Part shown: positions 29,953-59,492 of the stretch, one piece after another
How the letters are laid out: each line of letters starts with the position of its first letter
How positions within the stretch are numbered: the stretch's first letter is position 1
Source of the DNA: Yoonia sp.
GTDB taxonomy: Archaea; Thermoplasmatota; Poseidoniia; Poseidoniales; Poseidoniaceae
Length of the DNA stretch: 60,629 nucleotides
NCBI GenBank assembly: GCA_964230945.1
Contig: CAXRJJ010000034.1
Span: 1-60,629, forward strand
Direction of reading: 5' to 3'
Position numbers and translations under genes: made by a program
The notes under the pieces: model-generated
Database searches by the model: none
What the model saw: the letters and a program-made list of their open reading frames with translations, nothing else
Told to the model about the DNA's origin: nothing

Positions 29953-30115
29953 GAACTGCCCGATGCTGCATCATTCTTCAATGCTACTAGACATGTGAAC
30001 AGAAGCGCAGAGATGCATTTGCGCTAGATAATTCGAGTCTGTGGCTCGGCAAGCGTTATACGGCGGTCTTCAATGGGCGTGCTACCGCAACCATTTGTGT
30101 TGGAGATGAAAGAAA

Positions 30116-33100: not shown

Positions 33101-33322
33101 GAAGATGATGTAGAGGAGGCTGACGCCGCTGCTTCCGAAGAAGAGACTTCCGAAGAAGAGACTTCAGAAGAGGAGTCTGAGGACGAGGGAGAAGAGGATT
33201 CTGAAAGTGAAGAAGAATCTGCTGCGGATGATGTAACTGATGTATTGGTCTGTGAGATCTGTCAAACAAATAATCCAGCAGGTAGTGCAACCTGCTCGAC
33301 CTGTGGTTTCGTATTCTCTTGA
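30116..33322 (+). CDS. Large signal-peptide-less protein: N-terminal polyproline/PPG tandem array, beta-sandwich (DUF11/CARDB-like) repeats, EF-hand-like loop, poly-acidic region, C-terminal zinc ribbon
   Basis: Starts MSDDMPPPPPGLPPAPPGMD with no hydrophobic leader, and GGAG lies 9 nt upstream. The body has DUF11-like strands (LTWKVGTLQAGETRTLTCEANV; VEWNVPVIAKDERLEVSYEIKG). An EF-hand loop DADDNNYLNKGE is coded at 33005..33040. An E/D/S-rich tract follows, then CEICQTNNPAGSATCSTCG (33251..33319). Confidence 0.75.
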   Translation: MSDDMPPPPPGLPPAPPGMDSPPPPPGMDLPPPPPGMDAPPMDAPPAPPGMDLPPPPGIDAPPMDAPPAPPGMDLPPPPPMDAPPAPPEMDAPPAPPEMDASEESVDADPLSMDLPPPPPMDAPPAPPEMDAPPAPPGLEAPPPPPMDAPPAPPEMDAPLAPPGLEAPPPPPMDAPPAPPEMDDAPPAPPGLEAPPPPPMDAPPAPPEMDAPPAPPGLDLLATPPPPPPSEDPLAPPAPPGVDLLAPAPPEDAPEPPSADLLTGGSDEEGTEFDESSTPSGVHAGGSLRDIGSVDSIQGDKIYASLNETEDALLSCDGDIVKQNVKGVMTLHNPSSEDRLWDIDVFLSGTESTDFSNAHMPVDELEPDSDHSVDYKVKGARMLVIRERIDTNPSRSQERSLSVSHDSEATAIALELEVENVSSVQVDDVEVTRDVPDAIEITTGGDVEDGVLTWKVGTLQAGETRTLTCEANVLVQDIKPVNAGVTKATYSSDATLSSVHFTEVDAFCRGFSYMVVDEDERPDNWRCQAVFENRSSFAVDLVKLQVRVSGSDELLFDVADVSDDVPPQGKWESEVKEVAANERPDFTNELGYSVIPRVEHKTNGSIELEPQTFTILEADVTKTYDAATLRSYREQVVNSCITIKNTGSADINLMRLTDDVPGLFSNPDPEAVTITIDGDRMSPEQFRVELKDGVTLEEFRRSPDGDGCTIQLTIGTRGPVGLKPNSTMEISYSLTAPDPSPDNAEIAAPARTEFSAERFGPVCARDAAEAPVIRVSHKRRKFSAGKTVIPVGGKGRYEVMIIFENRSDTALQDLVIHDILPAGFEIKDCIVRGAGNEKRSDVEMNTDSQEDGTKVEWNVPVIAKDERLEVSYEIKGDGDIDAEAMQKFHGATFGDEVEDDSSLASLPSAAADSSDDTGDSEADEDSSDEDASAFSWNENVLSKVMEAHGITDRDAFLAHAIGFDADDNNYLNKGELTAAAEAWSEGGDEESAEENEDDVEEADAAASEEETSEEETSEEESEDEGEEDSESEEESAADDVTDVLVCEICQTNNPAGSATCSTCGFVFS
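30128..30890 (+). repeat. In-frame proline-rich tandem repeat array (PPAPPGMD / PPPPPMDAPPAPPEMDAPPAPPGLEA units)
   Basis: Degenerate 24-48-nt units run from 30128. Four 78/78/81/78-nt units at 30461..30775 are arranged A-B-A'-B', and A/A' and B/B' are nearly identical at the DNA level. Confidence 0.9.
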
Positions 33323-46519: not shown

Positions 46520-46555
46520 CATCAAGGTTTTGAGTAAGTAGTATCACGCAGGGTC

Positions 46556-48112
46556 GTGCAGCCGCAACCCGGGGCCTATGACCCAACCACGCCTACTGGC
46601 TATGCTCCGCAACAGCCATTTATGCAACAACCGATGATGCAGGCGCAGATGCAGCCATTACAGAATCAACAGATGGCGCAACAATATGTGCAACAACAAC
46701 AGATGATGTATCAGCAGCAGATGGCTTTCAAACAGCCAAGAATACAACGTCCTGGTTGGACAACTCCTAGTTTGACTAAGGCAGGAATTCTTGGAATCGT
46801 GATTCTTGTATTGAGCATAACTGGACTGATCATGGATGCTAGTGGAACTCCATGGGTTTGGAGTGATGATGACAATGGAACATTGTTAGATGGAGAAGAA
46901 ATGTTGGATGAGATTGATGATATCGATGAACAGCCACCTTTCGTATTGCGTATGATGCTATGGCCTACTACCATAATGATTCTTGGAATTGTGTTTTCCG
47001 TCCCATTGATTGTAATTGACCTAGTGCCAATGCCTAAACGCGTCCAAGGAGGTTTACACGGCCTATTCCTGCTTGCAAATGGAACCTGTGGGATTTTCAT
47101 GATGATGAGTTTTGGAGAGTGGCTGGGTTCTTACTTCAACCAGATGTTTGCGCCTGGAGATATGGAGATGCATATGCATGTTATGGTATACTATAATGCC
47201 ATTCTGGGCCTAGCATTAGGTGCCTCATTTATGTTGTTTGAATCTAGTCTTGAGAAAGTTTCAGATGGTTGGAAAACCGGTGAATTGCAGAGGCCAATGT
47301 ACAAGGTCGCATCTAATTTGATGTTATGTGCAGTAATCGCCTTGGTATTCACTCCATTATTCCCAATTGCTTGGCAATCATACTCTGATGATTACAAGGA
47401 CTCTCCTTGGTATGATGAAGAGAAAGATGGTTCGGGAGAACCATTGGCTCCATTAATGTTAGATTCATTCTATTTCAGCATTGAAGAATCTGATGGTTCT
47501 TGGTACCCTGACTGGGATCAAATGGAGAAAGACTCTCCTGACACATATGATGTACTCGTAAATAAGGCTAGGTTACATGATTACTTTTTGGTGGTTCTAT
47601 GGGTGCAACTATCATTGATGGTAATGATGATTGGTATTTCGTTGCCTAAAATGCAGAAAATAATGGAAGGAGTCTGCCAAATCAATGCCCTATTGGTCGG
47701 ATTCTTGATTCCAATTGTGATTTTCACGATTCTCATGTATATCTCAATTCCCGGAATGCATGGGGAATTAGTTAGTGATAGCACATACGATGGAGTATCA
47801 TTCCATTTGAATTGGTTCTTACCATTAGCGGCTATTTTAGTTGTCATCAACTGGTTTGTTTTCTTGTTCCGAATACACATACCTTGGTGGAAGAAGATAA
47901 CAGCTAAGGATCTAAGCAAGTTGTGGATGGATAATAACGCGTTCGGACAACCGATGATGCAACAACCCATGGTTATGCAACAACCTATGCAACAGATGGC
48001 TCCGCAGGCCCAGCAGCAAATGGTGCAACAGCAACAGATGCAACAGATGGCGATGCAGCAGCCGGCACAACAGGTGGCGCCGCAATTTCAGCAACCACAG
48101 ATGCCAAGATGA
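46556..48112 (+). CDS. Polytopic membrane protein with Gln/Met/Pro-rich low-complexity N- and C-termini
   Basis: 518 aa with a GTG start. The N-terminal ~60 aa and C-terminal ~60 aa are Q/M/P repeats (QQPMMQAQMQPLQNQQMAQQYVQQQQMMYQQQ; QPMMQQPMVMQQPMQQMAPQAQQQMVQQQQMQQMAMQQP). About 8 TM helices lie between them. Confidence 0.6.
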   Translation: MQPQPGAYDPTTPTGYAPQQPFMQQPMMQAQMQPLQNQQMAQQYVQQQQMMYQQQMAFKQPRIQRPGWTTPSLTKAGILGIVILVLSITGLIMDASGTPWVWSDDDNGTLLDGEEMLDEIDDIDEQPPFVLRMMLWPTTIMILGIVFSVPLIVIDLVPMPKRVQGGLHGLFLLANGTCGIFMMMSFGEWLGSYFNQMFAPGDMEMHMHVMVYYNAILGLALGASFMLFESSLEKVSDGWKTGELQRPMYKVASNLMLCAVIALVFTPLFPIAWQSYSDDYKDSPWYDEEKDGSGEPLAPLMLDSFYFSIEESDGSWYPDWDQMEKDSPDTYDVLVNKARLHDYFLVVLWVQLSLMVMMIGISLPKMQKIMEGVCQINALLVGFLIPIVIFTILMYISIPGMHGELVSDSTYDGVSFHLNWFLPLAAILVVINWFVFLFRIHIPWWKKITAKDLSKLWMDNNAFGQPMMQQPMVMQQPMQQMAPQAQQQMVQQQQMQQMAMQQPAQQVAPQFQQPQMPR

Positions 48113-48298: not shown

Positions 48299-51200
48299 AT
48301 GCAGAGGGTGCTGCAGGCTCTACTACTCTGTTTTATCATGTTGCCAGCCTTTCCTGTTCTAGAAGATGGTGCCAGTTCTGCTGTAGATGAATCATATGTT
48401 GAATCCAGTTCGCCGAGCGATGTTTTCCACGAGGTATTCTTCCAACCGCCATTGTCTTGGTGGTTGGAACAAGAAGGTAGCATCGAGGTTGTTGTTCTGA
48501 CCGATGATCTGCCCGCTTTACATTATTGGCAGTCAAGTGAGGGCTTACTGACAAAGCAGAAAGAAGGGGTTGGAGAACTAATTGAAAGCGATTTGGAGAT
48601 ATTGCAATCTAGACTGCAGCATCGCTTGGTAGAGATTCCAGCAATGCGAATTTCGGAGTTGTCTAAATTGCCAGGTATCAGATCATTGACTCAACCTTTA
48701 CCAGAAGCAGATGTCTATGATACATATTCCCCCCAGCCAGCCACTGTCAAGGCTAAAGATATCCATGGCGCAAGCAATGCTTGGTCGCTAAACAGTACCG
48801 GGCAAGGTGTCAAGGTTGCAATAGTCGATAGCGGGGTAGATTTCGCTCATCCTGATCTTAATGGAACTCAAGCCAGAGTTGACAATTCCAGCAGCCCATG
48901 GGATGGCTGGCCAATCGCTTTGGACCCTCGTTCGATCAAAGATTGGTTGTTGGATGGAGAAACATATCCTGGAGAATCTAATTCGTGGTATGCGGATACA
49001 AGTCTCATGGATTTTGACAACGATTCTGATTCCTCATTAGATGATTCAGGATTGGATGTGTCAGGAATTGTTAGCCAATCAGGGGAGTTTCGTATCGGTG
49101 AGCATCCGGATGATGATTTACAGTCAAGAGTTGGTGATGATGTTGCGATATTGTTGGTAGACTCTGTCCAAGCAAATGTCTACGATACCGTTTATGTGGA
49201 CCTCGATGGAGATTCATCTTTTGCTGATGAGGTTCCAATGAGTAAGGGTTCTGAGACTGCAGGTCTTGACCTCGATGGTGATGGATTATGGGACCGCAGT
49301 GGGGGGATGATTTACTTCATCGCTGATGGAAATACTTCTGTTCAGTATGCTCCTACTCTAGCGGCAAGATATGGAGTATCAGATAGAATTCCAGATAATG
49401 GTAACATGGTTGCATTCATGCTTAACGAAGGAAATGGCCCTGCTGGAAATCACGGCACATTGTGTGCAAGTGCAGTTTCTGCGCAAGCGATTGTCAGCGA
49501 TGGAAAGGTGCAGGGTATGGCGCCTGATGCAGATATCATTGCAGTTGGCAATTACTACAACGGTGGAATTTCAGGATATGATTCATGGCGCTATGTGGCT
49601 GAAGGTCCTGATGGCATCATCGATTCGGGTGATGAGGCTCATATCGGCTCTTTCTCATTTGGTTATTCGAGCATCGTCGATGCGGGTTCAGATTATGCTT
49701 CGATGTATCTCGATTGGTTGACTAGAGTATATTCGCGCAACACCACGTACATGGTCGCTTTGGGTAACGGAGGGCACGGTTATGGAACAGTTGCTTCTCC
49801 TGGTGGTGCTGCTGGCGTGGTATCAGTAGGTGCTGCATCATCCAAGACAGGTGAATCGATTGGAGACACATGGGGTGATACCGCGATGTGGACCAACCGC
49901 GGACCAAATTCACAGGGGAGAATGGATCCCGACATCGTTGCGATAGGTTGGTCTGCAACGGGAGATACTACACTCAATGAGAAGACAAATGCAAACTCCG
50001 CATATACGACATGGGGCGGGACCTCCCTTGCTACACCACTGGCGGCCGGTTTGATGGCGTTGGTATACCAAGCGTATTTCGATGAGAATGGATATTATCC
50101 CGATTCACAGACAATTAGAGACCTAGTTATGTCAACCTCTAGAGATATTGCCCATGATCCATTGGTTCAGGGAGCAGGTTGGTTCGATGCGCATAGAGCA
50201 GTTCAAACGATTCAGGGTGCTGATGAAACTTGGTGGACTTCTCCTGCTGCTTTGATGCCCGGTGAAAATGATGGAGACCATAGGTTAGCCAATGCGAATT
50301 GGATGTTACCCGGAGAGAGAAGTGTTCACCGTATACAATTGCATAATCCAACTGCTGATACTCAAGTGCTAGATTTCAGTAGCGAGACTTTGCAAGCAAC
50401 TTCGTATGAGAATTTCACATGGCTTTCGAATAGCAGTTTAGGTTGGGATGGATACCAGTCATCGCGTCCTGATTACGTCATACCTCTGCTGATTGATGGA
50501 GATGCAAATAACACAACAATTTCGCCCACTGATACGTTGATCAGGGCTAGAGCGACAGTACATCCGCTGGGTTTCGACGGTAACCAGAACAGGCAATCGG
50601 AAAATTCGGTCTATCTCTACGCCTATAGGTGGAATGACAGCAATGGTGACGGGAAATACTGGGATGATGCTGACAATGATTTGTTTGTTGGAGATGGAGA
50701 GTGGCAGTCGTCTGAAGTCTCCTTGATGACGTCTTTTGCCTATACTGGTCCTCAATCTGAAGTCAAGGTTTCAGACCCTTGGGAAGAGGATTGCGATGGG
50801 ATTTTGTTGGCAGTTACTCGTAGAGAAGTACGTACAGGGTATATTGATCCATTACCAGTTAGCATTGATGTTACAGGCTTTTCACCTGTTTCGGATAGTT
50901 GGTTGACTACTCAGCCTTCGCGCTCAATACCAGCTGGTGCTGTCAGAAATCTGACTGTGGTTGTAGATGTGCCAATCGATGCAGTTCCAGGATTGCGTCA
51001 ATCTGGAATCAGGATTGCCGATGAGCATGGTAGGGACTGGCTTTTGCCAGTTGTCACCACAGTTGCAGGTTCTGGACCAACTTCTTGGACTCCGCCAAAT
51101 GTCGATGATAACTTATCGAATCAGACATTGTATCGAGAGACATGGATGCAAGGGGCTCAGAGATGGGGCTGGAGAGCGGAGTCTGGAGATTGGAAGGCAT

Positions 51201-54200
51201 TTGCAGTTGATTGGCCGGCAAATATGAGTGGCGGTAAAATCATCATTGACGTCGATTGGCCAGATAATGGATTCACAGATATCGATGCATTCTGGTTGTC
51301 AGAGATATCCCATCCTTTTTCCTTAGATGATCCAGATGCATATGGTACAAAGGGCCTTTCTATAGAAGTTGGTTCTCAAAATGAACACACTGGCTCAGGG
51401 ATTTGGAAGAGGCAGACAAGTACTGGTACAGACCGCGAGATATTGACCGCAAGTGCAACTCCTGGGCATAAGATTCTGCTTTTGCACAGTACCATGCATG
51501 GTGTTTTGACCAACGATAACCCAGTGAATGTGTCCATCGGATATGCCGCTTTGATTTCAGGTAATATCTCGGCTAATGTCAGCGATTGGTCTACTGGAGA
51601 CTTCAATTCTAGTGCCGTCTTTGCATCGACAGTCAATCTGAGTGTGGATTCGATAACTGGAACAGGATGGAGTGAGCCTATGTATTGGGCTAATGAAAGT
51701 ATTTCCCAAGATGATCCAGGTGTGAAGTCCTCCTCCTCCTATATTCGTAGTATCAATCTTTCAGGAGTTGACGAAGTAGAAGTTAGAATCGATAGCAATG
51801 GATACCGCGATGATCTAGATTTATTCCTCTACCGCGATGATGATGGAGATGGGCAATTGGATTGGGATGATGAATTGAAACAATCATCCGGCGGTGCTGC
51901 GAGTGATGAGACGATAGTATTCGATCCTGCAGATGGGCAGTGGTGGATTGTCGTGCACGGATATTACGTGCATGGAAACAATGGCACTTTCTGGTTGAGC
52001 GTCAAGAGTTCTGGAGGAACGCAATTGCAAGTGACCAATCATAGTGAATACAATTCTTCCGAGGTCAGCATCTTATGGCCAAATGCCTCTAGTACATTAG
52101 GAGGTGAAGTAGCAAGTAAGGCTTGGCAAGTGAATTACACATTGACTAGGCCTGACTATGCAGGAACTTGGATCGGCTACATCATAGTAGAGTTACAAGG
52201 TGGTGGAGAATTCCGTCTCGAGTTTGAATACGAGTTGCTTGAGTTACCGAGTGAAGTTGTATTCCGTAAGCCTGCATTTGGCAGCTACCACAACAACGCG
52301 GCCAATGTTAGCGCTATGTTATCTGATTCAGGTGCAGGATTCCATCTTGAGAATATCAGTTTTGATTCGTTGTACCAGATGAATCTCTCCAACCATTCAT
52401 TTGAATTGACCGGCGTTTATTCTGATGGTTCTGAAGAGGTATTAACGGGAGATTATGTCGAATCAACGAGCAACCCTATTCTGGCGATGGCATGGTTTAA
52501 TTTCACGCTACCAGAAGTTGAGATGGAACATCATTTCTGGATAAATTTGAGTGATGATGCAGGCTATTCAACTTCAAGTACGTTGATACTGACATATGAT
52601 TCAACCCTTCCGCAATACGCCCCACAAGGAATTGGTCAAACAACTACACTGAGTAATCAAACGGAATGGGAACTTAGCATAGTTGGGGAAGCATATCTCG
52701 ACATTGAGGCAAATGGTATAGTGCCCCAGGTTTCTTTGATCGATTCAACAACTGTATCTGAATTGAACTTGAGTATCGATGCTTCTGAACTTTGGTGGTA
52801 CAACATGAGCATTCCACTTGCCCATGAGGGTTCTAATCAGATTTTCATCAATGCTAGCGACAGGGCTGGAAATGTCGACAACAGTAGTATCGTTGTAATT
52901 AGAGACACAGTTTCGCCCGATTTGTTGATGCGGAGTGACGCAACATTGTTGGTTGTCAATACTACAATTGTAGAATTCCAATTCAAGGTAGAACCGGGTG
53001 CAGATTTATGGTTGTCAGGAATGGAAATCGTAAACCCAGATTCCTTGCAATGGGTGGATGATGAAATCTCAACTCAGCAAGGTTCGTTTGAGGTTTCGAT
53101 GGTAGCAAGAGATGCCGCAGGCAACTGGGCCGAGGCCAAATTGGAGTTTGAGGTTGACAGTATTATGCCCCTCATGCAATGGTTAGAACCAGAGGTAAAC
53201 GCCAGTCTTACTCATCATGTTGTCCCAATCGCTTGGAGTCTTTCTGAGGAAGTAAGTATGGAACTCAACCTTGATTCTACTGGATGGAATACCATACCGA
53301 GTGGCTTGGTTGGAAGAAATTCTTGGGTTGTTGAATTAGCAAATACCGGTGCGCATGAGATATGCTTGAGGGCAACTGATTCTGGCAGGAATGCAGTAAT
53401 TTCTTGTCTTCCAATCGTTTTACCTGATTCAGTTTACACTCCTGTATTGACTGCACCTTGGGATAAAGAATGGGTGAATAGTACCGAAGTTGTCGCAGAA
53501 TTATACCTCGGATCGGTTCAGACCTGGCAAGTTGAAGGAGAGGGTATTTCATTACGAGGGACGGGACTTGGAGGAGTGGTGAATATTAGCATCCCAATAA
53601 ATGAAGGTTCAAACTCATTTGTTATGACTGCTCAAGGATTGGGAATCGAGAAAACATGGCAATTATCGGTATACCGTGACACATTGGTTCCGACTCTGCA
53701 ATTGCTCAGCCCCGAATCACGCATTGCATTGGTCAAGGAAGATATCAATCTAGGATTCCCTTTGCTGACTGTAGAAGGAGTTACCGAACCATTGGCAAGT
53801 GTCAGATGTGATGTTCTCAATGAGGGTGTTTGGTCCCAAACCACAAGTGCTGAAGATGGCACTTTTAGTCTAGGTTTGACGCCTTGGGCTGATTGGCGAG
53901 AAGCGGATATCGATTCACGCTCTGTAGAAATCACTTGCCTCGCAATCGATGCTGCTCAGAATTCTGTATCTAAAGTGATTAGCACAGTCATCGATACATC
54001 TCCGCCTGAAGTAATTTTAGAGTGGATTGGTGATTTAGAGGAATTATATTTGATGCATGATATCTGGAGCGAGGATGCTGTGGAGGAATGGAATCTAACA
54101 ATTGTTCATGATGGTAAGATTTCCGAACCCTATCAAGAACTAGAAATGCGTTCACAGATTGCAATGTCTGGAAATTTGGAAGGTGTTTGGAATGCAACCC

Positions 54201-54595
54201 TCTCTGTGAGGGATTCTGCAGGTCATTGGAGCAATGCAAGTATCGAGATATCATTGCAACCTGAAGAACAAGGGCTTGGATCGATTCTAGAGGCTGCAGG
54301 CGGACCTCTGAACATTAGTATTGGAATCTTGGCTCTAGTTATCATTGTAGGATTCATTTTGAGGCCTAGAAGAGAAGAAGATGAGGTCGTTGATTCAGTT
54401 CCAATGGACCCTGAGTTGTTTGCAGAAACCAAGCCACTTCAAGCACAAACTGAGGCTATTGTTCCTCGAGTAACATCTACCCCAATGCCCCCCACGCCTG
54501 CCCAAAGCACTAGTTTATTGCAGGCTTCTAAGGAATTATTGAAGGAAGAATCTCAATATTCTTCAATCCTTGATGAATTAGAAGAATTGGATTGA
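48299..54595 (+). CDS. Giant membrane-anchored subtilase (peptidase S8, TPP-II/pyrolysin-like catalytic domain) with PPC and multiple Ig-like domains, single TM and 77-aa cytoplasmic tail
   Basis: Signal MQRVLQALLLCFIMLPAFPVLE. Catalytic Asp in VAIVDSGVD (aa 177), His in NHGTLCAS (aa 385), Asn in ALGNGG (aa 490) and Ser in GGTSLATPLAAG (aa 576). A PPC-like DDLDLFLYRDDDGDG...WWIVVHGYYV is present. TM ISIGILALVIIVGFIL is followed by RPRREEDE.... Confidence 0.9.
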   Translation: MQRVLQALLLCFIMLPAFPVLEDGASSAVDESYVESSSPSDVFHEVFFQPPLSWWLEQEGSIEVVVLTDDLPALHYWQSSEGLLTKQKEGVGELIESDLEILQSRLQHRLVEIPAMRISELSKLPGIRSLTQPLPEADVYDTYSPQPATVKAKDIHGASNAWSLNSTGQGVKVAIVDSGVDFAHPDLNGTQARVDNSSSPWDGWPIALDPRSIKDWLLDGETYPGESNSWYADTSLMDFDNDSDSSLDDSGLDVSGIVSQSGEFRIGEHPDDDLQSRVGDDVAILLVDSVQANVYDTVYVDLDGDSSFADEVPMSKGSETAGLDLDGDGLWDRSGGMIYFIADGNTSVQYAPTLAARYGVSDRIPDNGNMVAFMLNEGNGPAGNHGTLCASAVSAQAIVSDGKVQGMAPDADIIAVGNYYNGGISGYDSWRYVAEGPDGIIDSGDEAHIGSFSFGYSSIVDAGSDYASMYLDWLTRVYSRNTTYMVALGNGGHGYGTVASPGGAAGVVSVGAASSKTGESIGDTWGDTAMWTNRGPNSQGRMDPDIVAIGWSATGDTTLNEKTNANSAYTTWGGTSLATPLAAGLMALVYQAYFDENGYYPDSQTIRDLVMSTSRDIAHDPLVQGAGWFDAHRAVQTIQGADETWWTSPAALMPGENDGDHRLANANWMLPGERSVHRIQLHNPTADTQVLDFSSETLQATSYENFTWLSNSSLGWDGYQSSRPDYVIPLLIDGDANNTTISPTDTLIRARATVHPLGFDGNQNRQSENSVYLYAYRWNDSNGDGKYWDDADNDLFVGDGEWQSSEVSLMTSFAYTGPQSEVKVSDPWEEDCDGILLAVTRREVRTGYIDPLPVSIDVTGFSPVSDSWLTTQPSRSIPAGAVRNLTVVVDVPIDAVPGLRQSGIRIADEHGRDWLLPVVTTVAGSGPTSWTPPNVDDNLSNQTLYRETWMQGAQRWGWRAESGDWKAFAVDWPANMSGGKIIIDVDWPDNGFTDIDAFWLSEISHPFSLDDPDAYGTKGLSIEVGSQNEHTGSGIWKRQTSTGTDREILTASATPGHKILLLHSTMHGVLTNDNPVNVSIGYAALISGNISANVSDWSTGDFNSSAVFASTVNLSVDSITGTGWSEPMYWANESISQDDPGVKSSSSYIRSINLSGVDEVEVRIDSNGYRDDLDLFLYRDDDGDGQLDWDDELKQSSGGAASDETIVFDPADGQWWIVVHGYYVHGNNGTFWLSVKSSGGTQLQVTNHSEYNSSEVSILWPNASSTLGGEVASKAWQVNYTLTRPDYAGTWIGYIIVELQGGGEFRLEFEYELLELPSEVVFRKPAFGSYHNNAANVSAMLSDSGAGFHLENISFDSLYQMNLSNHSFELTGVYSDGSEEVLTGDYVESTSNPILAMAWFNFTLPEVEMEHHFWINLSDDAGYSTSSTLILTYDSTLPQYAPQGIGQTTTLSNQTEWELSIVGEAYLDIEANGIVPQVSLIDSTTVSELNLSIDASELWWYNMSIPLAHEGSNQIFINASDRAGNVDNSSIVVIRDTVSPDLLMRSDATLLVVNTTIVEFQFKVEPGADLWLSGMEIVNPDSLQWVDDEISTQQGSFEVSMVARDAAGNWAEAKLEFEVDSIMPLMQWLEPEVNASLTHHVVPIAWSLSEEVSMELNLDSTGWNTIPSGLVGRNSWVVELANTGAHEICLRATDSGRNAVISCLPIVLPDSVYTPVLTAPWDKEWVNSTEVVAELYLGSVQTWQVEGEGISLRGTGLGGVVNISIPINEGSNSFVMTAQGLGIEKTWQLSVYRDTLVPTLQLLSPESRIALVKEDINLGFPLLTVEGVTEPLASVRCDVLNEGVWSQTTSAEDGTFSLGLTPWADWREADIDSRSVEITCLAIDAAQNSVSKVISTVIDTSPPEVILEWIGDLEELYLMHDIWSEDAVEEWNLTIVHDGKISEPYQELEMRSQIAMSGNLEGVWNATLSVRDSAGHWSNASIEISLQPEEQGLGSILEAAGGPLNISIGILALVIIVGFILRPRREEDEVVDSVPMDPELFAETKPLQAQTEAIVPRVTSTPMPPTPAQSTSLLQASKELLKEESQYSSILDELEELD

Positions 54596-54649: not shown

Positions 54650-57600
54650 GTGAAACATCCCGACAAGTCAAGATTTATGGTATCGGCAAAGTCGGTATTT
54701 CTTGTATTTCTGCTGCTGTGTAGTATTCCAGCACTGCAATTGTCTGCTGCTACTGACGGAGATGGAGATGGCATAGATGATGCATTGGATGATTGTGAAT
54801 TCGCGGCTGGAAACAGCACTATCGATTTTACAGGTTGTCCTGATCAAGATGGTGATGGAAACCCAGATTTCATCGGAGTAAATTATCCAGCATGGAATGA
54901 CTCATCACGGGAGCTATACCATTCAGGTGGAGACTCTAGAGCGGTTACTTGGTCTCCTGATGGCATGTACATTGCAGGTGCAGGAGATGGCAATGTGAAT
55001 CTGTATTGGGTTGGTGGCTTGCTTACAGTTCTGCATACCATCGATGAAAATGTCAGGGCTTTGAAATTCTCGCCTAACGGGTCTTATCTCGCAGTAGGTG
55101 GATATGAAGAAGATCAATGGGAGAATCGATATGGGTGGATGTTAGTTTTGGAGATGAATTGGGCATCACTTACTGCTACGGTTGTTCAGAATCTTTCTTC
55201 GATGCACCCTGATACTGATGTGCCAAGCCTCGCATGGTCATCGAATGGCTCTTATCTCTATACGGGAGCTGATAATGAGATACGCAGATTTTCAGTTCAT
55301 GATAACTGGATGATGGATATGAATTACTCCTATTATTCCGGAAATGTATGGGCTTTGGATACTAGTCCGGATGACAGGTTGATTGCAGGTATTTCTGGTG
55401 GCGGGGAACTCAAGGTATACTGGGCAGAAAATGGTACTTCTTACATGGAATTCAACAATCACACCGGTAGCCATGCACTGGGTTTAGAATTCAGTCCTGA
55501 TGGCCGTTGGTTGTTAACGGGAGGTTTTGATAACATGGTTAATATCTATAATGTTTCCAATAAGTCTCTATACGATTCAATCCTGATTGGATCAGATGTT
55601 TATGGCATTTCATTCCATCCAAAGGGTTCGCATTTTATCTTGGCAAGGCAGAGTTCTTCTGCATTAATTTACGACTCAGAGAATTGGGAACTTTCCAGTA
55701 GTTTTGGTTCATTTGGTAGTAGCAACAATAATCGGGGTTTGCGCGCAGTCGAGTGGTCTCCTTCGGAGTATGCTATAGCATTTGGTCAGCGGCGAGGAAG
55801 AATAGTAACTCATGTTGTGGATGAAGGATATATGCAGATTTCAGGAGGAGAATTGACTTATGGACTTGAAGAGGATTGGCGTCAGGAATGGCAGCCCAAC
55901 CATGGTAAATTGGTCGGTACTCAAAATATGAATAGTTATTTTGGCACAGTTGGGTTATGCTCGAATAATGGAATTCTACATGCATCTGTACAAGGTCCCG
56001 ATACTACTTATGTTTCTGAGGATGCAAACTACAGTAGCAATGGGCAACTCGATTGCTTGACCAGTGCAGATACTTTATTGGAAATTCCAATCGGTAGAGT
56101 TCCAATGACTTTCGCGGTAAAGCAATCTGGATTAATTGATTCATGCCTTTCTTCTATAGGTGGCTTAACTACGGGTCAACTTCGTTGGTTCCTTTCGGGT
56201 TCCAGTGAAAATGCACTTGCCGCTGGAATAGGAGAATTGCCTGGATTAAATATTAGCTCTGTAGCTCCAAACGATGATACTGATGGCATCAAGGAATGGT
56301 CAGATATCTCCAGTAACTGTCCAGAAGATGAGATGGTATTCGTTCATGAATGGGAGAATAAGACCGATTCTGCAATTCTAATGAAAGAGTTGTTTTGCAG
56401 CGGTTGCCAACAGAAGGATTCACTGTATTCACATTCTAATGATAGAGCGAGATTTCAGGTTGAATATCCATCTGAAGTTCTTGACGGATTAAATGGACCT
56501 GCAGGTGATTCTTTACTTGGCATGGTCGACCTGATGTATGCTACAAACAATCCTGCTGGGATATCCTTAGTTCCTATAGTTGACAATCTTACGCATGGAA
56601 TTGTAGACGCTTTGGCTGCAGGTGATGTTGCCGTTCAAGCAACCTACAACAATTCACGCGATGGCCTATGGCCTGTGCAGAGTGATTACACCTATTTGAT
56701 CAACAGTAATGATATCGAGGATAAGCGTTCATTCATCGAATGGTCATTGGATACCAATGGCATCATATTTTGGGAAAACCATGAATTCGTCAGGCTGAGC
56801 ATACTTGATCAGGTAAGGTCTTGGGCAATTATGGGACATGACAGGACCTGGATGTTACCTGATGATGATGGGGATGGAATTTGGGATGGAGATGACCAAT
56901 GTGAAAATACTCCTTCAGGTAGCATCGTTGATGAAAATGGCTGTGCAGAAGTTCAACTGGATGATGATTCAGATGGAATAAATAATGCCTTGGATGATTG
57001 TGATACCTCGTTTGGCAATGCAACGCAATCTCCCTATGTTGGCTGTCCTGATCAAGATGGTGATGGGTACGCAGATGTCGATGATTCCTTTGTTCAGGAT
57101 TCAAGCCAGTGGAGAGATTCAGACTTGGATGGTTTCGGCGACAATCCATTGGGCAATCAAGCAGATAGCTGCCCAGATGTGGTAGGTAATTCTACAGAGG
57201 ATAGATTCGGCTGTATAGATGAGGACGGCGATGGATGGTCTAATGCTGATGAGTCAGGAGAATGGGGTATTGAGAATGGCTCTGATGCCTTCCCAAGCGA
57301 TTCTTTGCAATGGAAAGACAGTGATTCTGATGGTTATGGAGATAATTACTACTGGCAGGGCGAATCAGACGCGAGGGTGAACCAAAGTGGAGACAGTTTC
57401 ATTGATGACCCAAGCCAATGGTGGGATCGAGATGGCGATGGTTTCGGAGATGAGGTCAATGGAACCAATGGTGATAACTGTCCAGATGTTCCTGGAACTT
57501 CAATCAAGAATGAGACTTATGGTTGTATAGATAGTGATGGTGATGGTTATGCTGACAGCATAGATGATTTGCCTCAGGAATCTACCCAATGGTGGGACCG

Positions 57601-58615
57601 TGATGGAGATGGAAAGGGAGACAATCCAGTTGGTGCATCGGCTGATCAGTGCCCAGATACTTTAGCGGAAGAAAAGGACATGATCAATTACGAAGGTTGT
57701 GGTCCAAGTGAGCGAGATTCGGATTATGATGGAATAACGGATGCTATGGATGATTGTCCTAATACTTCTCCGTTTGAAGTCATCAAGGTCGATTCAAACG
57801 GCTGTGCTCCTTCTGAGGTTGATAGTGATGGAGACGGGGTATCTGATGATCTTGATTGGGCGCCTCTTGATGCAAATCAGAGTAGTGACGATGACGAGGA
57901 CGGCTTTGGCGACAATCATTTGGCTCCAGACGGTGATGACTGCCCAGAAACTGCAGGAACCAGCACGAAGGACAGACGCGGTTGCATAGACAGTGATGGA
58001 GATGGTTACAGCGACCCCGATTCCACATGGTCAATTCCACAAGGCGCTGATTGGCGCAGTTCAGATCCAACTCAATGGTCTGATTCGGATGGAGATGGTT
58101 ATGGGGATAATTGGGGTAATCCTGAATGGAATGAAAGCAGGAACTCCAGTTGGCCAGGAACTTTTGTTCCCTCTGCTAGTAAGCCTGACAAATGTCCTTT
58201 ACAGGCTTATGAATATGCACAATCTGATGGTTGTCCACCCGATGATTCAGTTCAAGATGATGAATCTGATAGTCTGTCTGACGACACTTCCAGTGGTTCT
58301 GACACGACTTTGATGTACGGATTAGCAGCTTTGGGTGGAATTGTAGTTCTCGGATTAGTCGGTGCTGTTGTAGTGCTCTTGAGAAAGCCACCCCCTACTA
58401 GGAAAAGACCCACAAAAGAACCAGAGGTAGTACATGAAGAAGAGCCTGTAGTCGAGAACGTCGATGCGGTTACTTGGGTTCAATCGTGGGAAGAGTTGCC
58501 TTCTGGCGGGGAATATTTGCCTGCAGATTCAAATGGGACTGTATGGTACAGAACTCTAGAAGGAGAACACTGGCAACAGGAACATGACCAGTCATGGAGC
58601 CTATGGCAAGGATGA
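54650..58615 (+). CDS. Giant surface protein: WD40 beta-propeller + PstS-like periplasmic-binding-fold domain + thrombospondin type-3 Ca-binding repeat array + TM + 77-aa cytoplasmic tail
   Basis: GTG start (ATG alternative at 54677). Signal/anchor SVFLVFLLLCSIPALQLSAA. WD40-like blades include VTWSPDGMYIAGAGDGNVNLYW, LKFSPNGSYLAVGG, LAWSSNGSYLYTGADNEIRRF, LEFSPDGRWLLTGGFDNMVNIYNV and ISFHPKGSHFILA. A PBP-like stretch follows (LTTGQLRWFLSG...IKEWSDIS). More than 10 TSP3 units are present (GCPDQDGDGYAD, DSDLDGFGDN, GCIDEDGDGWSN, DSDSDGYGDN, DRDGDGFGDE, ...). TM LAALGGIVVLGLVGAVVVLL. Confidence 0.85.
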   Translation: MKHPDKSRFMVSAKSVFLVFLLLCSIPALQLSAATDGDGDGIDDALDDCEFAAGNSTIDFTGCPDQDGDGNPDFIGVNYPAWNDSSRELYHSGGDSRAVTWSPDGMYIAGAGDGNVNLYWVGGLLTVLHTIDENVRALKFSPNGSYLAVGGYEEDQWENRYGWMLVLEMNWASLTATVVQNLSSMHPDTDVPSLAWSSNGSYLYTGADNEIRRFSVHDNWMMDMNYSYYSGNVWALDTSPDDRLIAGISGGGELKVYWAENGTSYMEFNNHTGSHALGLEFSPDGRWLLTGGFDNMVNIYNVSNKSLYDSILIGSDVYGISFHPKGSHFILARQSSSALIYDSENWELSSSFGSFGSSNNNRGLRAVEWSPSEYAIAFGQRRGRIVTHVVDEGYMQISGGELTYGLEEDWRQEWQPNHGKLVGTQNMNSYFGTVGLCSNNGILHASVQGPDTTYVSEDANYSSNGQLDCLTSADTLLEIPIGRVPMTFAVKQSGLIDSCLSSIGGLTTGQLRWFLSGSSENALAAGIGELPGLNISSVAPNDDTDGIKEWSDISSNCPEDEMVFVHEWENKTDSAILMKELFCSGCQQKDSLYSHSNDRARFQVEYPSEVLDGLNGPAGDSLLGMVDLMYATNNPAGISLVPIVDNLTHGIVDALAAGDVAVQATYNNSRDGLWPVQSDYTYLINSNDIEDKRSFIEWSLDTNGIIFWENHEFVRLSILDQVRSWAIMGHDRTWMLPDDDGDGIWDGDDQCENTPSGSIVDENGCAEVQLDDDSDGINNALDDCDTSFGNATQSPYVGCPDQDGDGYADVDDSFVQDSSQWRDSDLDGFGDNPLGNQADSCPDVVGNSTEDRFGCIDEDGDGWSNADESGEWGIENGSDAFPSDSLQWKDSDSDGYGDNYYWQGESDARVNQSGDSFIDDPSQWWDRDGDGFGDEVNGTNGDNCPDVPGTSIKNETYGCIDSDGDGYADSIDDLPQESTQWWDRDGDGKGDNPVGASADQCPDTLAEEKDMINYEGCGPSERDSDYDGITDAMDDCPNTSPFEVIKVDSNGCAPSEVDSDGDGVSDDLDWAPLDANQSSDDDEDGFGDNHLAPDGDDCPETAGTSTKDRRGCIDSDGDGYSDPDSTWSIPQGADWRSSDPTQWSDSDGDGYGDNWGNPEWNESRNSSWPGTFVPSASKPDKCPLQAYEYAQSDGCPPDDSVQDDESDSLSDDTSSGSDTTLMYGLAALGGIVVLGLVGAVVVLLRKPPPTRKRPTKEPEVVHEEEPVVENVDAVTWVQSWEELPSGGEYLPADSNGTVWYRTLEGEHWQQEHDQSWSLWQG

Positions 58616-58640
58616 AGGAGGCGTTCTCCGCCGCCACAAC

Positions 58641-59492
58641 ATGGCCATAGAACGGATTGCTGTGCTTGGTGCGGGACAGATGGGTAATGGAATAACTCAG
58701 GTTGCAGCCTGCGCTGGATATGAAGTATTGATGATTGATATTGAACAACAATATGTTGAAAATGGAATCAATACCATCAAATCATCTCTAGATAGGTTGG
58801 TGGCCAAGGATAGGATGAGTGCAGATGATGCAGAATCCGCATTGGCTCGAATAAGCATCTCCACAGATCGGCAAATGGCGGCAAATCATGATCTCCTGAT
58901 CGAAGCGATTCCAGAGATTCCAGAACTCAAGTATTCAACTTTCAAGGAGATGGATTCAATCTGTAAACCCGAGACCATTCTAGCATCCAATACTTCGAGC
59001 ATCAGCATTGATTCGATTGCGGCTGCAACAAATCGTCCCGACAAGGTCATTGGCATGCATTTCATGAATCCAGTTCCTTTGATGAAATTGGTCGAAGTGA
59101 TTAATGGTAGTGCAACCAGCGATGAAGTGAACAGTGCAGTTGTAAATGCTGCAGAGAAGATGGGTAAGACCGCCCTTTCTTGCAACGATTCACCAGGTTT
59201 CGTATCAAACAGAATCCTATGTCCGATGCTCAATGAAGCGATATTGACTTTGCAGGAAGGTGTTGCTGAACCTGAAGCGATTGATGGGATTATGAAACTT
59301 GGAATGAATCATCCAATTGGCCCACTTGCTCTTTCTGATTTGATTGGTCTTGATACTGTGCTGCATATCATGAATGTGCTGCATGAAGGACTTGCTGATG
59401 ACAAGTATGCTCCCGCTCCACTTTTGATTGAAATGGTGGAACAAGGAAAGCTCGGACGCAAGTCTGGAAGTGGTTTTTACAACTATAGTTGA
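58641..59492 (+). CDS. hbd: 3-hydroxyacyl-CoA / 3-hydroxybutyryl-CoA dehydrogenase
   Basis: Start at the ATG at 58641 (MAIERIAVLGAGQMGNGITQVAA). Motifs SNTSSISI, GMHFMNPVPLMKLVEVI and GFVSNRIL. The track start at 58584 overlaps the upstream gene. Confidence 0.9.
   Translation: MAIERIAVLGAGQMGNGITQVAACAGYEVLMIDIEQQYVENGINTIKSSLDRLVAKDRMSADDAESALARISISTDRQMAANHDLLIEAIPEIPELKYSTFKEMDSICKPETILASNTSSISIDSIAAATNRPDKVIGMHFMNPVPLMKLVEVINGSATSDEVNSAVVNAAEKMGKTALSCNDSPGFVSNRILCPMLNEAILTLQEGVAEPEAIDGIMKLGMNHPIGPLALSDLIGLDTVLHIMNVLHEGLADDKYAPAPLLIEMVEQGKLGRKSGSGFYNYS

What the first reader, a model, noticed from the sequence alone, without database searches (positions are those of the whole stretch)
58493..58612. 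Same Trp/Tyr-rich WW- or GYF-like module at the extreme cytoplasmic C-terminus of two unrelated giant surface proteins
The Kelch protein (20574..25127) and the WD40/TSP3 protein (54650..58615) have unrelated ectodomains. After the single TM helix, both cytoplasmic tails end in the same ~30-aa pattern. The Kelch version is GEYQYDAEGT-WYSGPDCGRWKQNEDGSF (coded 25029..25124). The WD40 version is GEYLPADSNGTVWYRTLEGEHWQQEHDQSW (coded within 58493..58612). The shared pattern is G-E-Y-x(4-6)-G-T-x(0-1)-W-Y-x(4-5)-G-x(1-2)-W-x-Q-x(2-3)-D-x-S-[FW]. The WD40 copy (ELPSGGEY...GTVWY...HWQQ) lines up with the WW consensus LPxGWE...G..YY......W, except that the first Trp is Gly. The Kelch copy also resembles the GYF signature (Y-x-Y-D-x-x-G...GP...W...G-x-F). 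Both WW and GYF are proline-rich-peptide readers. A conserved module on the inner face of giant extracellular proteins implies inside-outside coupling (anchoring, sorting or signalling). I know of no described family that accounts for it.
Basis: partly seen in the sequence, partly recalled or inferred. Interest (0 to 1): 0.72.

Follow-up and report, generated by a model that had tools for sequence, protein, structure and literature searches.

The report
Conserved cytoplasmic end-module of archaeal surface giants
Two unrelated giant surface proteins of an uncultured marine archaeon (Poseidoniales) end, on the inner side of the membrane, in the same small tryptophan-rich folded domain; this domain is a real, conserved and so far unnamed family, but tests do not show it to be a WW or GYF domain.

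Summary
The Kelch protein (20574..25127) and the WD40/TSP3 protein (54650..58615) each have a signal peptide, one C-terminal TM helix, a basic patch and a disordered acidic/proline-rich tether. Each ends in a 42-45 aa module (24999..25124; 58478..58612).

A two-sequence profile found 83 proteins at E<=1e-3 among 1.84 billion. After five propeller false positives are removed, 76 of 78 matches end within 19 aa of the C-terminus (67 within 3). Carriers include Kelch+CARDB, WD40/TSP3, 8xCARDB and C-type-lectin giants and two polytopic membrane proteins. Named members are Poseidoniales or 'Euryarchaeota' MAG hypothetical proteins.

In orthologues the module is the best-conserved part (43-62% identity, against 29-32% for the ectodomain and 10-24% for the linker). 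AlphaFold2 gives the same confident four-stranded beta-meander for both subtypes (pLDDT 90 and 81-92).

Pfam, NCBIfam, PDB sequences and Foldseek give no significant match. hhalign probabilities are WW 3.8%, GYF 2.3% and DUF2510 0.9%.

Best reading: a new lineage-specific cytoplasmic docking domain tethered to membrane proteins. That function is inferred, not shown.

The parts
54650..58615 (+). Gene for the 1321-aa WD40 + TSP3-like giant type-I surface protein (carrier 1)
   Evidence: ORF; Pfam WD40 and beta-propeller families; 93-96% identical orthologues in Poseidoniales MAGs.
58310..58381 (+). Single C-terminal transmembrane helix of carrier 1 (aa ~1221-1244)
   Evidence: Kyte-Doolittle windows 1219-1247; boundaries refined by reading the sequence.
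58382..58417 (+). Basic, proline-rich juxtamembrane patch RKPPPTRKRPTK (stop-transfer, positive-inside)
   Evidence: Read from the sequence. At least 3 K/R in the first 15 residues after the TM helix in 83 of 106 family tails.
58418..58477 (+). Acidic linker EPEVVHEEEPVVENVDAVTW (tether)
   Evidence: Family linkers are P/E/S-rich with net charge -9 per 100 aa, 10-152 aa long, median 49; linker identity among orthologues is only 10-30%.
58478..58612 (+). Terminal module, 'WD40 subtype': VQSWEELPSGGEYLPADSNGTVWYRTLEGEHWQQEHDQSWSLWQG, ending at the stop codon
   Evidence: Family HMM match. The AF2 run covered window 58463-58612 (50 aa, the module plus 5 upstream residues): mean pLDDT 90.4, pTM 0.68, four strands plus an N-terminal cap.
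20574..25127 (+). Gene for the 1517-aa Kelch + CARDB giant type-I surface protein (carrier 2)
   Evidence: ORF; Pfam Kelch_1/Kelch_6/CARDB; orthologues at 29-74% identity.
24717..24776 (+). Single C-terminal transmembrane helix of carrier 2 (aa ~1382-1401), followed by RR
   Evidence: Kyte-Doolittle windows 1382-1407.
24777..24998 (+). Acidic/proline-rich linker of carrier 2; it contains the Kelch-family motif ANAALDSLLV (24915..24944)
   Evidence: Sequence. The A-A-x-x-[FM]-x-A-L-[DG]-x-L motif recurs in Kelch-type tails. AF2 predicts a helix there at low confidence (pLDDT 52-62).
24999..25124 (+). Terminal module, 'Kelch subtype': VADWQGLAWAGEYQYDAEGTWYSGPDCGRWKQNEDGSFTRHS, ending at the stop codon
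   Evidence: Family HMM match at 78.4 bits. AF2 gives pLDDT 81-92 for the last ~50 residues and the same four-strand meander. Module identity to orthologues is 43-62% (81% to the close relative P0003) against 29-32% for the ectodomain.

Best explanation
The two tails carry a previously unannotated, autonomously folding domain of about 42-45 residues.

Fold and consensus. It has an N-terminal cap (V-x-[SD]-[WYH]-E-x-L-P-x-G-G-[ED]-Y) followed by a four-stranded antiparallel beta-meander (...G-T-x(0,1)-[WYF]-[YF]...G-x-x-W-x-[QL]-N-x-D-x-S-[FW]-[TS]-[KR]).

Distribution. It is specific to Poseidoniales (Marine Group II) archaea and at least one unidentified high-GC relative.

Placement. It is always at a cytoplasm-facing terminus of a membrane protein. 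Usually this is the extreme C-terminus of a giant type-I surface protein, reached through a flexible acidic/proline-rich tether of 10-150 residues.

What is shown: the family exists; it sits at a terminus next to a membrane anchor; the inferred topology is cytoplasmic; it is confidently predicted to fold; and it is under stronger purifying selection than the ectodomain, TM helix and linker.

What is inferred: the same strongly conserved, aromatic-rich bead is tethered to at least four unrelated ectodomain architectures and to polytopic proteins. It therefore most likely acts as a protein-protein docking (adaptor) domain that connects these surface proteins to one shared cytoplasmic or membrane-proximal partner, or to each other. 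That would serve positioning, clustering, retention or signalling. The aromatic surface suggests the ligand is a short linear peptide, possibly proline-rich.
For: Family and position:
- 83 hits at E<=1e-3 among 1.84 billion representatives, from a two-sequence profile.
- Of 78 true hits, 67 end within 3 aa and 76 within 19 aa of the C-terminus; 2 are N-terminal.
- In 60 independent metagenome loci the module always ends at the stop codon of an SP+TM protein.

Membrane context:
- All 14 full-length giants have a signal peptide plus a single TM helix, and 26 of 27 hits of >=200 aa have a TM helix.
- A basic patch follows the TM helix in 83 of 106 tails, supporting a cytoplasmic location.
- The N-terminal copies (P0069/P0070) lack a signal peptide and precede polytopic TM bundles.

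Unrelated hosts:
- Kelch+CARDB, WD40/TSP3, SBBP/TSP3, 8xCARDB+DUF4832, C-type lectin, a 4-TM protein and a 5-6-TM protein.
- In BLASTP between such giants the module is the only shared segment, for example 43% identity over 42 aa at E=2e-4.

Selection:
- Module 43-62% identical among orthologues, against ectodomain 29-32%, linker 10-24% and TM helix 12-25%.
- L12, G16 and W37 are invariant; Y18 and D42 are 95% conserved.

Fold:
- pLDDT 90.4 and pTM 0.68 for the WD40 subtype.
- pLDDT 81-92 with the same topology for the Kelch subtype.

Clustering of carriers: 2 in this window, 3 within 17 kb in L067 and 2 within 7.5 kb in L071.
Against: - No partner has been identified, and nothing here measures binding.
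- The fold rests on AlphaFold2 only.
- Most conserved positions (Gly and Asp in turns, aromatic residues) could be conserved for folding alone, so conservation does not prove a ligand.
- The S8 giant surface protein in the same window (48299..54595) has the same SP+TM+tail layout without the module. The module is therefore not a general requirement for anchoring or export.
- Proline-rich juxtamembrane motifs, the candidate cis or trans ligands, occur in only 46 of 106 tails.
- One hit (P0059) is a coiled-coil protein with no TM helix.
- The organisms are uncultured, so the topology is inferred rather than measured.
Confidence: 0.5

Rival explanations
1. It is a genuine but very divergent WW domain, an archaeal homologue of the eukaryotic proline-peptide reader. 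It binds the proline-rich juxtamembrane motifs ([KR]GPPP[KA], RGPPRGPPK, LPxPxPP) of its own or neighbouring tails, or of a cytoplasmic partner.
For: Strands 1-3 of the model fall where the WW strands would. Basic PPP or GPP motifs sit in 46 of 106 tails, and P0081 carries PPLP just after the module.
Against: hhalign probability is only 3.8% over 19 columns. There is no Pfam WW hit at E<=10 in any of 64 members and no WW chain in the PDB profile search at E<=10. No WW structure appears in the Foldseek top 50. The position of the first WW tryptophan is an invariant Gly or an acidic residue. There is no proline after the invariant Trp (W-x-[QL]-N). The model adds a fourth strand and an N-terminal cap. 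Tails with purely acidic linkers have no PPP motif.
Confidence: 0.12
2. It is a self-association module. Each copy is a single propeller-blade-like four-stranded sheet, and several tails assemble into an oligomer (possibly a closed propeller), clustering the giant surface proteins in the membrane.
For: The only weak similarities are to beta-propeller blades or beta-hairpin repeats:
- Hyd_WA at E=0.06.
- Designed 'Cake' propellers at E=0.57.
- Tectonin-2 blade at TMq 0.54, probability 0.6.
- Cumulative multi-stretch hits to Reg_prop and Kelch repeat proteins.
- Choline-binding/CROP repeats.
Several carriers are encoded close together.
Against: All these similarities are non-significant. The host proteins' own Kelch and WD40 blades do not match the family HMM (best 3.8 bits). 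No multimer prediction could be run. The module carries an N-terminal cap that covers one face, which is not typical of a propeller blade.
Confidence: 0.13
3. It is a passive 'stopper'. A small, fast-folding, highly stable knob on the cytoplasmic side resists extraction or slippage of a single TM helix that anchors a very large ectodomain. It has no specific ligand.
For: It sits at the terminus behind a single TM helix on very large ectodomains. The conserved positions are largely fold-determining (Gly, Asp, aromatic).
Against: The long flexible tether (median 49 aa, up to 152) is unnecessary for a stopper. The module also occurs on small polytopic proteins that need no extra anchoring (P0029, P0069). 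The S8 giant in the same genome does without it. A stopper would not need 43-62% sequence conservation across genera.
Confidence: 0.1
4. It is a C-terminal sorting or processing signal of the PGF-CTERM / archaeosortase, PEP-CTERM or T9SS-CTD kind.
For: It is at the extreme C-terminus of secreted-domain proteins. A neighbouring giant protein in L071 does end in a PGF...TM...RRN signal, so such systems exist in these genomes.
Against: The order of elements is reversed. Sortase-type signals are motif-TM-basic tail at the very end, whereas here the order is TM-basic patch-long linker-folded domain. The module also occurs at an N-terminus. There is no Pfam or NCBIfam sorting-signal model hit.
Confidence: 0.03
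5. Chance or compositional resemblance between two Trp-rich tails; not a real feature.
For: The pairwise BLASTP E-value in the full-length comparison is only 0.51.
Against: 83 database hits at E<=1e-3, 14 at <=1e-10, almost all terminal. The Smith-Waterman shuffle test gives at most 1 of 5000. Both models are confident and concordant. The module is conserved in orthologues.
Confidence: 0.01

Closest known systems
WW domain (Pfam PF00397)
   Same: Small, Trp/Tyr-rich antiparallel beta-sheet of similar size. It begins with L-P-x-G and has an aromatic pair after G-x-x in strand 2 and an invariant Trp in strand 3. It is often used as a tethered adaptor in cytoplasmic tails and scaffolds. The hhalign register agrees over 19 columns.
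   Different: No significant profile or structural match. The first signature Trp is replaced by an invariant Gly or acidic residue, and there is no W-x-x-P proline. The model has four strands plus an upstream V-x-x-W cap instead of three strands. The lineage is archaeal, whereas WW is, to my knowledge, essentially eukaryotic.
GYF domain (Pfam PF02213)
   Same: A small proline-peptide reader. A local P-x-G-G-[QE]-[FY] string is shared with CD2BP2 (6 columns). GPPP-type motifs in the tails recall GYF ligands (from my own knowledge of the CD2 PPPGHR motif).
   Different: The GYF fold contains a long alpha-helix and the G-[YF]-F bulge, while the models here are all-beta within the module. hhalign probability is 2.3%, and there is no Pfam hit.
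Single blades of tectonin / Hyd_WA-type beta-propellers (PF06462) and beta-hairpin repeats such as choline-binding/CROP repeats
   Same: Four-stranded (or hairpin) Trp/Tyr-rich meander with G-x-W-Y...G-x-x-W spacing. These give the best, though non-significant, sequence and structure echoes.
   Different: Those are extracellular tandem repeats that close into propellers or solenoids and bind sugars or choline. This module is a single cytoplasmic copy with its own N-terminal cap, and it does not match the blades of its own host proteins.
DUF2510 (PF10708) and similar small terminal cytoplasmic modules of bacterial membrane proteins
   Same: A short Trp-rich beta-hairpin module (GWYPDP..G..RYWDG..WT) placed at a cytoplasmic terminus of membrane proteins, function unknown (from my own knowledge). 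The conceptual architecture is similar.
   Different: hhalign probability is 0.9% with an out-of-register alignment, and there is no Pfam hit at E<=10. DUF2510 is shorter (about 27-35 aa) and occurs in a different lineage (mainly Actinobacteria, from my own knowledge).
Cytoplasmic tails of eukaryotic adhesion receptors (integrin, cadherin, CD2)
   Same: Type-I topology with a huge ectodomain, a single TM helix and a short cytoplasmic tail carrying a conserved docking element shared across receptor classes.
   Different: Those tails carry linear motifs bound by soluble adaptors. Here the tail itself carries the folded domain. There is no sequence relationship, and no partner or cytoskeletal link is known in Poseidoniales.

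Membership tests
WW domain (PF00397) | Match to the Pfam WW profile at or above the gathering score (26.9 bits) | tested here: not met
   No WW hit for the two tails or any of 64 family members even at E<=10. Control WW sequences score 41-61 bits in the same library.
WW domain (PF00397) | Two signature tryptophans about 20-23 residues apart, the first in strand 1 immediately after L-P-x-G | tested here: not met
   The position after L-P-x-G is Gly (100% G16), followed by E/D and then Y18. The invariant W37 corresponds to the second Trp only.
WW domain (PF00397) | Conserved proline two to three residues after the second Trp (W-x-x-P) | tested here: not met
   The columns after W37 are K/Y/W, Q/L/M, N and E/D, with no proline.
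WW domain (PF00397) | Three-stranded antiparallel sheet as the whole domain, and structural similarity to solved WW domains | tested here: not met
   The AF2 models have four strands plus an N-terminal cap. Foldseek against the PDB gives no hit at E<=1e-3 and no WW in the top 50. Foldseek is weak for very small domains, so this row is not decisive on its own.
WW domain (PF00397) | Profile-profile homology | tested here: not met
   hhalign of the 64-sequence family alignment against 7 Pfam-verified WW sequences gives probability 3.8% over 19 aligned columns.
WW domain (PF00397) | Binds proline-rich or phospho-Ser/Thr-Pro peptides | not testable with these tools
   Needs ITC, peptide arrays or a multimer prediction. 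Proline-rich motifs exist in 46 of 106 tails, but this is circumstantial.
GYF domain (PF02213) | Match to the Pfam GYF profile, and the G-P-[YF]...W...G-[YF]-F signature | tested here: not met
   No GYF hit at E<=10. hhalign probability 2.3% over 6 columns. There is no conserved G-[YF]-F tripeptide in the column profile.
GYF domain (PF02213) | Beta-beta-alpha-beta-beta fold with a central helix packing on the sheet | tested here: not met
   The module region is all-beta apart from a 3-residue turn in both AF2 models.
DUF2510 (PF10708) | Match to the Pfam profile, or profile-profile homology | tested here: not met
   No hit at E<=10. hhalign probability 0.9%. Control sequences score 50-55 bits.
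Beta-propeller blade families (Hyd_WA/tectonin, Kelch, WD40, Reg_prop) | Significant profile match, tandem repetition, and closure into a propeller | tested here: not met
   The best matches are Hyd_WA at E=0.06 in one member and tectonin-2 at Foldseek E=1.7. There is a single copy per protein. The host blades do not match the family HMM. Oligomeric closure could not be tested.
C-terminal sorting signals (PGF-CTERM, PEP-CTERM, LPXTG, T9SS CTD) | Signature motif followed by a TM helix and a short basic tail at the very end (or a beta-sandwich CTD on a secreted protein), plus a model match | tested here: not met
   The order here is TM helix, basic patch, long linker, folded domain. There are no NCBIfam or Pfam sorting-signal hits. 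N-terminal copies exist.
New family proposed here (Poseidoniales cytoplasmic terminal beta-meander module) | V-x-[SD]-[WYH]-E-x-L-P-x-G-G-[ED]-Y ... G-T-x(0,1)-[WYF]-[YF] ... G-x-x-W-x-[QL]-N-x-D-x-S-[FW], at a cytoplasmic terminus of a membrane protein | tested here: met
   Both window copies match the family HMM at 68.7 and 78.4 bits and end at the stop codon behind a TM helix.

The most novel reading that the evidence does not exclude
The module is a universal cytoplasmic 'handle'. Through it, the most abundant planktonic archaea couple many different giant adhesins and enzymes on the cell surface to one intracellular scaffold or signalling partner. This would be an archaeal, independently evolved counterpart of integrin/cadherin-type inside-outside coupling. 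In this version the folded reader domain sits on the receptor tail, and the ligand may be the proline-rich juxtamembrane motifs of neighbouring tails.
Probability: 0.2. Interest if true: 0.8.

Novelty: new variant of a known kind. Interest (0 to 1): 0.55.

Why it matters
Poseidoniales are among the most abundant archaea in the surface ocean and remain uncultured. Their giant surface proteins are thought to mediate particle attachment and polymer degradation, but nothing is known about how they are organised at the membrane.

A strongly conserved, folded cytoplasmic domain shared by several unrelated surface-protein classes gives three things:
- A concrete, synthesisable 45-residue handle for biochemistry (fold, ligand, oligomeric state).
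- A sequence marker for annotating a whole class of 'hypothetical' membrane proteins in marine metagenomes.
- A testable hypothesis that archaeal surface proteins are coupled to a common intracellular partner.

It also adds a new small beta-domain family with no detectable relatives in Pfam, NCBIfam or the PDB.

Tried and rejected
1. Word-indexed homology searches with each 51-55 aa tail alone found nothing, because no three 5-mer words were shared. Two capped searches were lost, and the problem was solved by the exhaustive profile search.

2. Exact-sequence look-ups of both window proteins found no record.

3. The genome-contig scan with the WD40 protein gave only two near-identical orthologues. 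These were useful for taxonomy only.

4. Many database hits of 56-102 aa looked like free-standing versions of the module. Inspection showed that the ORFs run open to the contig edge (L003, L004, L006) or that the tail is cut off by frameshifts from a Kelch/CARDB/TM body (L005). The 'stand-alone protein' idea was rejected.

5. The multi-stretch hits P0024, P0030, P0041, P0060 and P0073 were treated as cumulative false positives. The four that were scanned (P0024, P0030, P0060, P0073) are beta-propeller, LamG-type or other repeat proteins. P0041 (5811 aa) was too large for the call and was not scanned.

6. WW, GYF and DUF2510 homology was rejected at the available sensitivity.

7. Derivation from the hosts' own Kelch or WD40 blades is not supported.

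8. The full 64-sequence alignment was too diverse for the search for related loci. A tight sub-alignment worked but sampled essentially one ~1190-aa orthologous family.

9. No copies were found in viral contigs.

10. Literature searches found no description of the module.

11. The taxonomy of the 70%-GC contig L067 could not be established. In that call I also trimmed the wrong end of the minus-strand genes, so several look-ups failed for a trivial reason.

12. The comparison of within-genome and between-genome module similarity was inconclusive. Subtypes mostly follow the host family, with exceptions in L071 and L067.
Full report
OBSERVATION. The window comes from an uncultured Poseidoniales (Marine Group II) archaeon. 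The WD40/TSP3 gene has 93% and 96% identical orthologues in MAGs titled 'uncultured Candidatus Poseidoniales archaeon' and 'Euryarchaeota archaeon UBA226'. ORF 20574..25127 (1517 aa) carries Kelch repeats and a CARDB domain. ORF 54650..58615 (1321 aa) carries WD40 repeats followed by Asp-rich TSP3-like repeats.

Both proteins have an N-terminal hydrophobic signal and one hydrophobic helix near the C-terminus (Kelch aa ~1382-1401, WD40 aa ~1221-1244), followed at once by basic residues (RR; RKPPPTRKRPTK). Their regular expression matches only these two places in all six frames.

In a full-length BLASTP the tail pair is the best HSP but is not significant alone (21.9 bits, E=0.51). Restricted to the tails, the Smith-Waterman score is 61 against 28+-5 for shuffles, with at most 1 of 5000 shuffles reaching it. 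DNA identity over the aligned codons is 46%, so this is not a recent DNA exchange.

IS IT A FAMILY? A profile built from only the two window tails (alignment A1) was scored against 1.84 billion representative proteins. It returned 83 proteins at library-wide E<=1e-3 and 14 at <=1e-10. Five multi-stretch hits were set aside as cumulative false positives. Four of them were scanned and are beta-propeller, LamG-type or other repeat proteins. The fifth, P0041 (5811 aa), was not scanned.

Of the remaining 78 hits, 67 end within 3 residues of the C-terminus and 76 within 19. Two carry the module at the N-terminus. All 14 full-length giants (>=1200 aa) have a signal peptide plus one TM helix, and 26 of 27 hits of >=200 aa have a TM helix upstream.

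A second, independent sample came from 60 marine metagenome loci retrieved with a sub-alignment. In every case the module ends at the stop codon of a ~1160-1207 aa protein with a signal peptide and a TM helix.

Many short 'proteins' of 56-102 aa returned by the word-indexed search proved to be truncated or frameshifted ends of larger genes. I therefore found no evidence for a free-standing version. One hit, P0059, is a 261-aa coiled-coil protein without a TM helix, and its DNA could not be retrieved.

HOSTS. By Pfam and by BLAST of the ectodomains with the last 150 residues removed, the carriers fall into several groups:
- A Kelch+CARDB family.
- A WD40/TSP3 superfamily, which includes SBBP/TSP3 members and the ~1190-aa family.
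- An 8xCARDB+DUF4832 protein (P0068).
- C-type-lectin giants (P0081).
- A 4-TM protein with the module at its C-terminus (P0029).
- A polytopic protein with the module at its N-terminus and no signal peptide (P0069/P0070).

Between unrelated giants, BLASTP finds the module as the only shared segment. Examples are L067 lectin-2 against the window Kelch protein (43% over 42 aa, E=2e-4) and L067 WD40 against L067 lectin-2 (45%, E=6e-7).

Carriers cluster on the chromosome: two in this window, three within 17 kb on the 70%-GC contig L067, and two within 7.5 kb on L071. The module is not universal. The 2098-aa S8 protease in this window has the same signal peptide, TM helix and tail layout but no module. 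A giant protein in L071 ends instead in a PGF-CTERM-like signal.

All source names are 'hypothetical protein' from Poseidoniales, Poseidoniaceae or 'Euryarchaeota archaeon' MAGs. No viral contig carries the module.

ANATOMY OF THE TAIL. In 106 tails with a detectable TM helix, the order is TM helix, basic patch, linker, module:
- The basic patch has at least 3 K/R in the first 15 residues in 83 of 106 tails.
- The linker is rich in Pro (14%), Glu (12%) and Ser (11%), with net charge -9 per 100 residues. It is 10-152 aa long, with a median of 49.

The positive-inside rule, the signal peptide plus single TM helix, and the signal-less N-terminal copies all place the module in the cytoplasm. This is an inference, not a measurement.

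Kelch-type tails also share a repeated [KR]-G-P-P-P-[KA] motif and an A-A-x-x-[FM]-x-A-L-[DG]-x-L motif. In the window the latter is ANAALDSLLV at 24915..24944, and AF2 draws it as a low-confidence helix. PPP or GPP motifs within 40 residues of the membrane occur in 46 of 106 tails.

THE MODULE. The consensus from 64 sequences (alignment A2) is V-x-[SD]-[WYH]-E-x-L-P-x-G-G-[ED]-Y-x(5-7)-G-T-x(0,1)-[WYF]-[YF]-x(4)-G-x-x-W-x-[QL]-N-x-D-x-S-[FW]-[TS]-[KR]. L12, G16 and W37 are invariant; Y18 and D42 are 95% conserved and P13 is 92% conserved.

AlphaFold2 with this alignment gives mean pLDDT 90.4 and pTM 0.68 for the WD40-type tail. The model has a short strand and turn (the V..WE.LP cap) followed by four strands at residues 17-19, 28-30, 36-39 and 45-48 of the 50-aa query. 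The Kelch-type tail was predicted with a separate 30-sequence alignment and 40 extra upstream residues. Its last ~50 residues show the same topology at pLDDT 81-92, with a low-confidence linker.

Within orthologous families the module is the best-conserved part of the protein. In the cleanly parsed Kelch-family pairs other than the close relative P0003, module identity is 43-62%, against ectodomain 29-32%, linker 10-24% and TM helix 12-25%. Two pairs in that call were mis-parsed by my regular expression and are not counted.

IS IT WW OR GYF? The tests gave the following results:
- No family member hits Pfam WW, GYF or any other family consistently, even at E<=10. NCBIfam has nothing.
- The family profile against 177,635 distinct PDB sequences at E<=10 returns only designed 'Cake' propellers (E=0.57) and 4E-BP1 (E=2.2). 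No WW or GYF chain appears.
- Foldseek of both models against the PDB gives no hit at E<=1e-3 and no WW or GYF structure in the top 50. The best geometric match is one blade of tectonin-2 (TMq 0.54, probability 0.6). The Kelch-type model weakly touches choline-binding/CROP hairpin repeats.
- The defining WW features are missing. The first Trp is an invariant Gly, the W-x-x-P proline is absent, and there is a fourth strand plus a cap. GYF requires a helix that the models lack.

WW-likeness therefore survives only as a loose analogy: a small aromatic beta-sheet starting with LPxG. Homology is not supported at the sensitivity available. Foldseek is admittedly weak for such small domains, and no HHpred database was at hand.

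The propeller-blade echoes are also non-significant, and the hosts' own blades do not match the family HMM (best 3.8 bits).

MECHANISM. What is shown: a conserved, confidently predicted folded domain is tethered by a disordered linker to cytoplasm-facing termini of membrane proteins. It is shared by unrelated hosts and is under stronger constraint than the rest of the protein.

What is inferred: it is a docking domain for a partner common to all carriers. That partner could be a cytoplasmic or peripheral protein, or the tails of neighbouring carriers. The likely binding surface is aromatic and the likely ligand a short peptide. I put this at about 0.5.

The rivals are:
- A true divergent WW domain reading the tails' own proline-rich motifs (0.12).
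- Blade-like self-assembly that clusters the giants (0.13).
- A passive folded stopper (0.10).
- A sorting signal (0.03).
- Chance (0.01).

The comparison of within-genome and between-genome module similarity was inconclusive. Subtypes mostly track the host family (window WD40 against P0018 57%, window Kelch against P0019 62%, window WD40 against window Kelch 36%). However, the 4-TM and TSP3 carriers of L071 share 70%, which indicates occasional domain transfer between hosts.

NOVELTY AND VERDICT. I found no description in Pfam (2025 copy), NCBIfam release 20, the PDB, or the searchable literature. This is a new, lineage-restricted small domain family of a broadly familiar kind: a tethered cytoplasmic adaptor-like beta module. 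Interest is moderate (0.55). The module is a clean, testable handle on the cell-surface organisation of an abundant uncultured archaeal order, but its function is unknown.

Noticed in passing
window 48299..54595 (+); also L001 2621..8974 and L002: The 2098-aa subtilisin-like (Peptidase_S8) giant surface protein just upstream of the WD40 gene has the same signal peptide + single TM + cytoplasmic tail layout but lacks the module. Its tail ends instead in a conserved acidic string ...KEESQYSSILDELEELD (EEFD in the orthologues). This may be a different terminal element.
   Followed up: partly
window 58584..59492 (+): The mechanical ORF of the downstream 3-hydroxybutyryl-CoA dehydrogenase starts at an ATG 32 nt inside the module-coding end of the WD40 gene. 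The real start is probably the later MAIERIAVLGAG. The 90%-identity cluster of the WD40 protein oddly also contains proteins named 3-hydroxybutyryl-CoA dehydrogenase, probably a clustering or fused-call artefact.
   Followed up: no
L071 845..3907 (-): A 1021-aa surface protein lying between two module carriers ends in ...GFLPGFTAALGLVALLGAAMISSRRN. This is a PGF-CTERM-like (archaeosortase-type) anchor, so these genomes appear to use at least two different ways of anchoring giant surface proteins.
   Followed up: no
L067 1..21869 (contig of 48.7 kb, 70% GC, sample SRR12463106): An organism with very high GC content, of unknown taxonomy, carries three module-bearing giants within 17 kb: two tandem ~1770-aa C-type-lectin proteins that are 34-35% identical to each other, and a 1271-aa WD40 protein. 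This shows the module extends beyond the 40-47% GC Poseidoniales sampled elsewhere.
   Followed up: partly
L069 970..1527 (+), next to the carrier gene at 1577..2884: A dual-specificity/tyrosine phosphatase gene (PTP-SAK, DSPc) lies 50 nt upstream of the polytopic protein that carries the module at its N-terminus. This is a single observation and might hint at phospho-regulation.
   Followed up: no
L003 1..362, L004 1..297, L006 1..364: Three independent metagenome contigs begin inside the linker-coding region just upstream of the module, and gene callers then report a spurious 64-67 aa 'protein' from an internal Met. The repeated break point suggests that the low-complexity or variable linker region breaks assemblies. 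In L003 and L004 a DUF2240 gene starts at the module gene's stop codon.
   Followed up: partly
window 24915..24944 and Kelch-type tails of P0033, P0038, P0055, P0076 and others: Kelch-family tails share two further conserved elements between the TM helix and the module: repeated [KR]-G-P-P-P-[KA] motifs, and an A-A-x-x-[FM]-x-A-L-[DG]-x-L motif predicted as a helix at low confidence. The window copy has the second element but not the GPPP motif.
   Followed up: partly
window 46538..48112 (+); also L001 917..2491: A 524-aa membrane protein just upstream of the S8 gene ends in a long Q/M/P-rich low-complexity tail (...QPMMQQPMVMQQPMQQMAPQAQQQMVQQQQMQQ...), conserved in the orthologous locus. Its function is unknown.
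   Followed up: no
window 30110..33322 (+): A 1070-aa ORF ends in a highly acidic low-complexity stretch followed by a zinc-ribbon-like CxxC...CxxC motif (CEICQTNNPAGSATCSTCGFVFS). This is another example of a small terminal module on a large protein in this genome.
   Followed up: no
P0081 C-terminus (L067 6563..11869): In this carrier the module is followed by an 11-residue extension containing PPLP (…ERDDHERPPLPAED), and its linker is only about 10 residues long. The PPLP is anecdotal, but it bears on the proline-peptide hypothesis.
   Followed up: no
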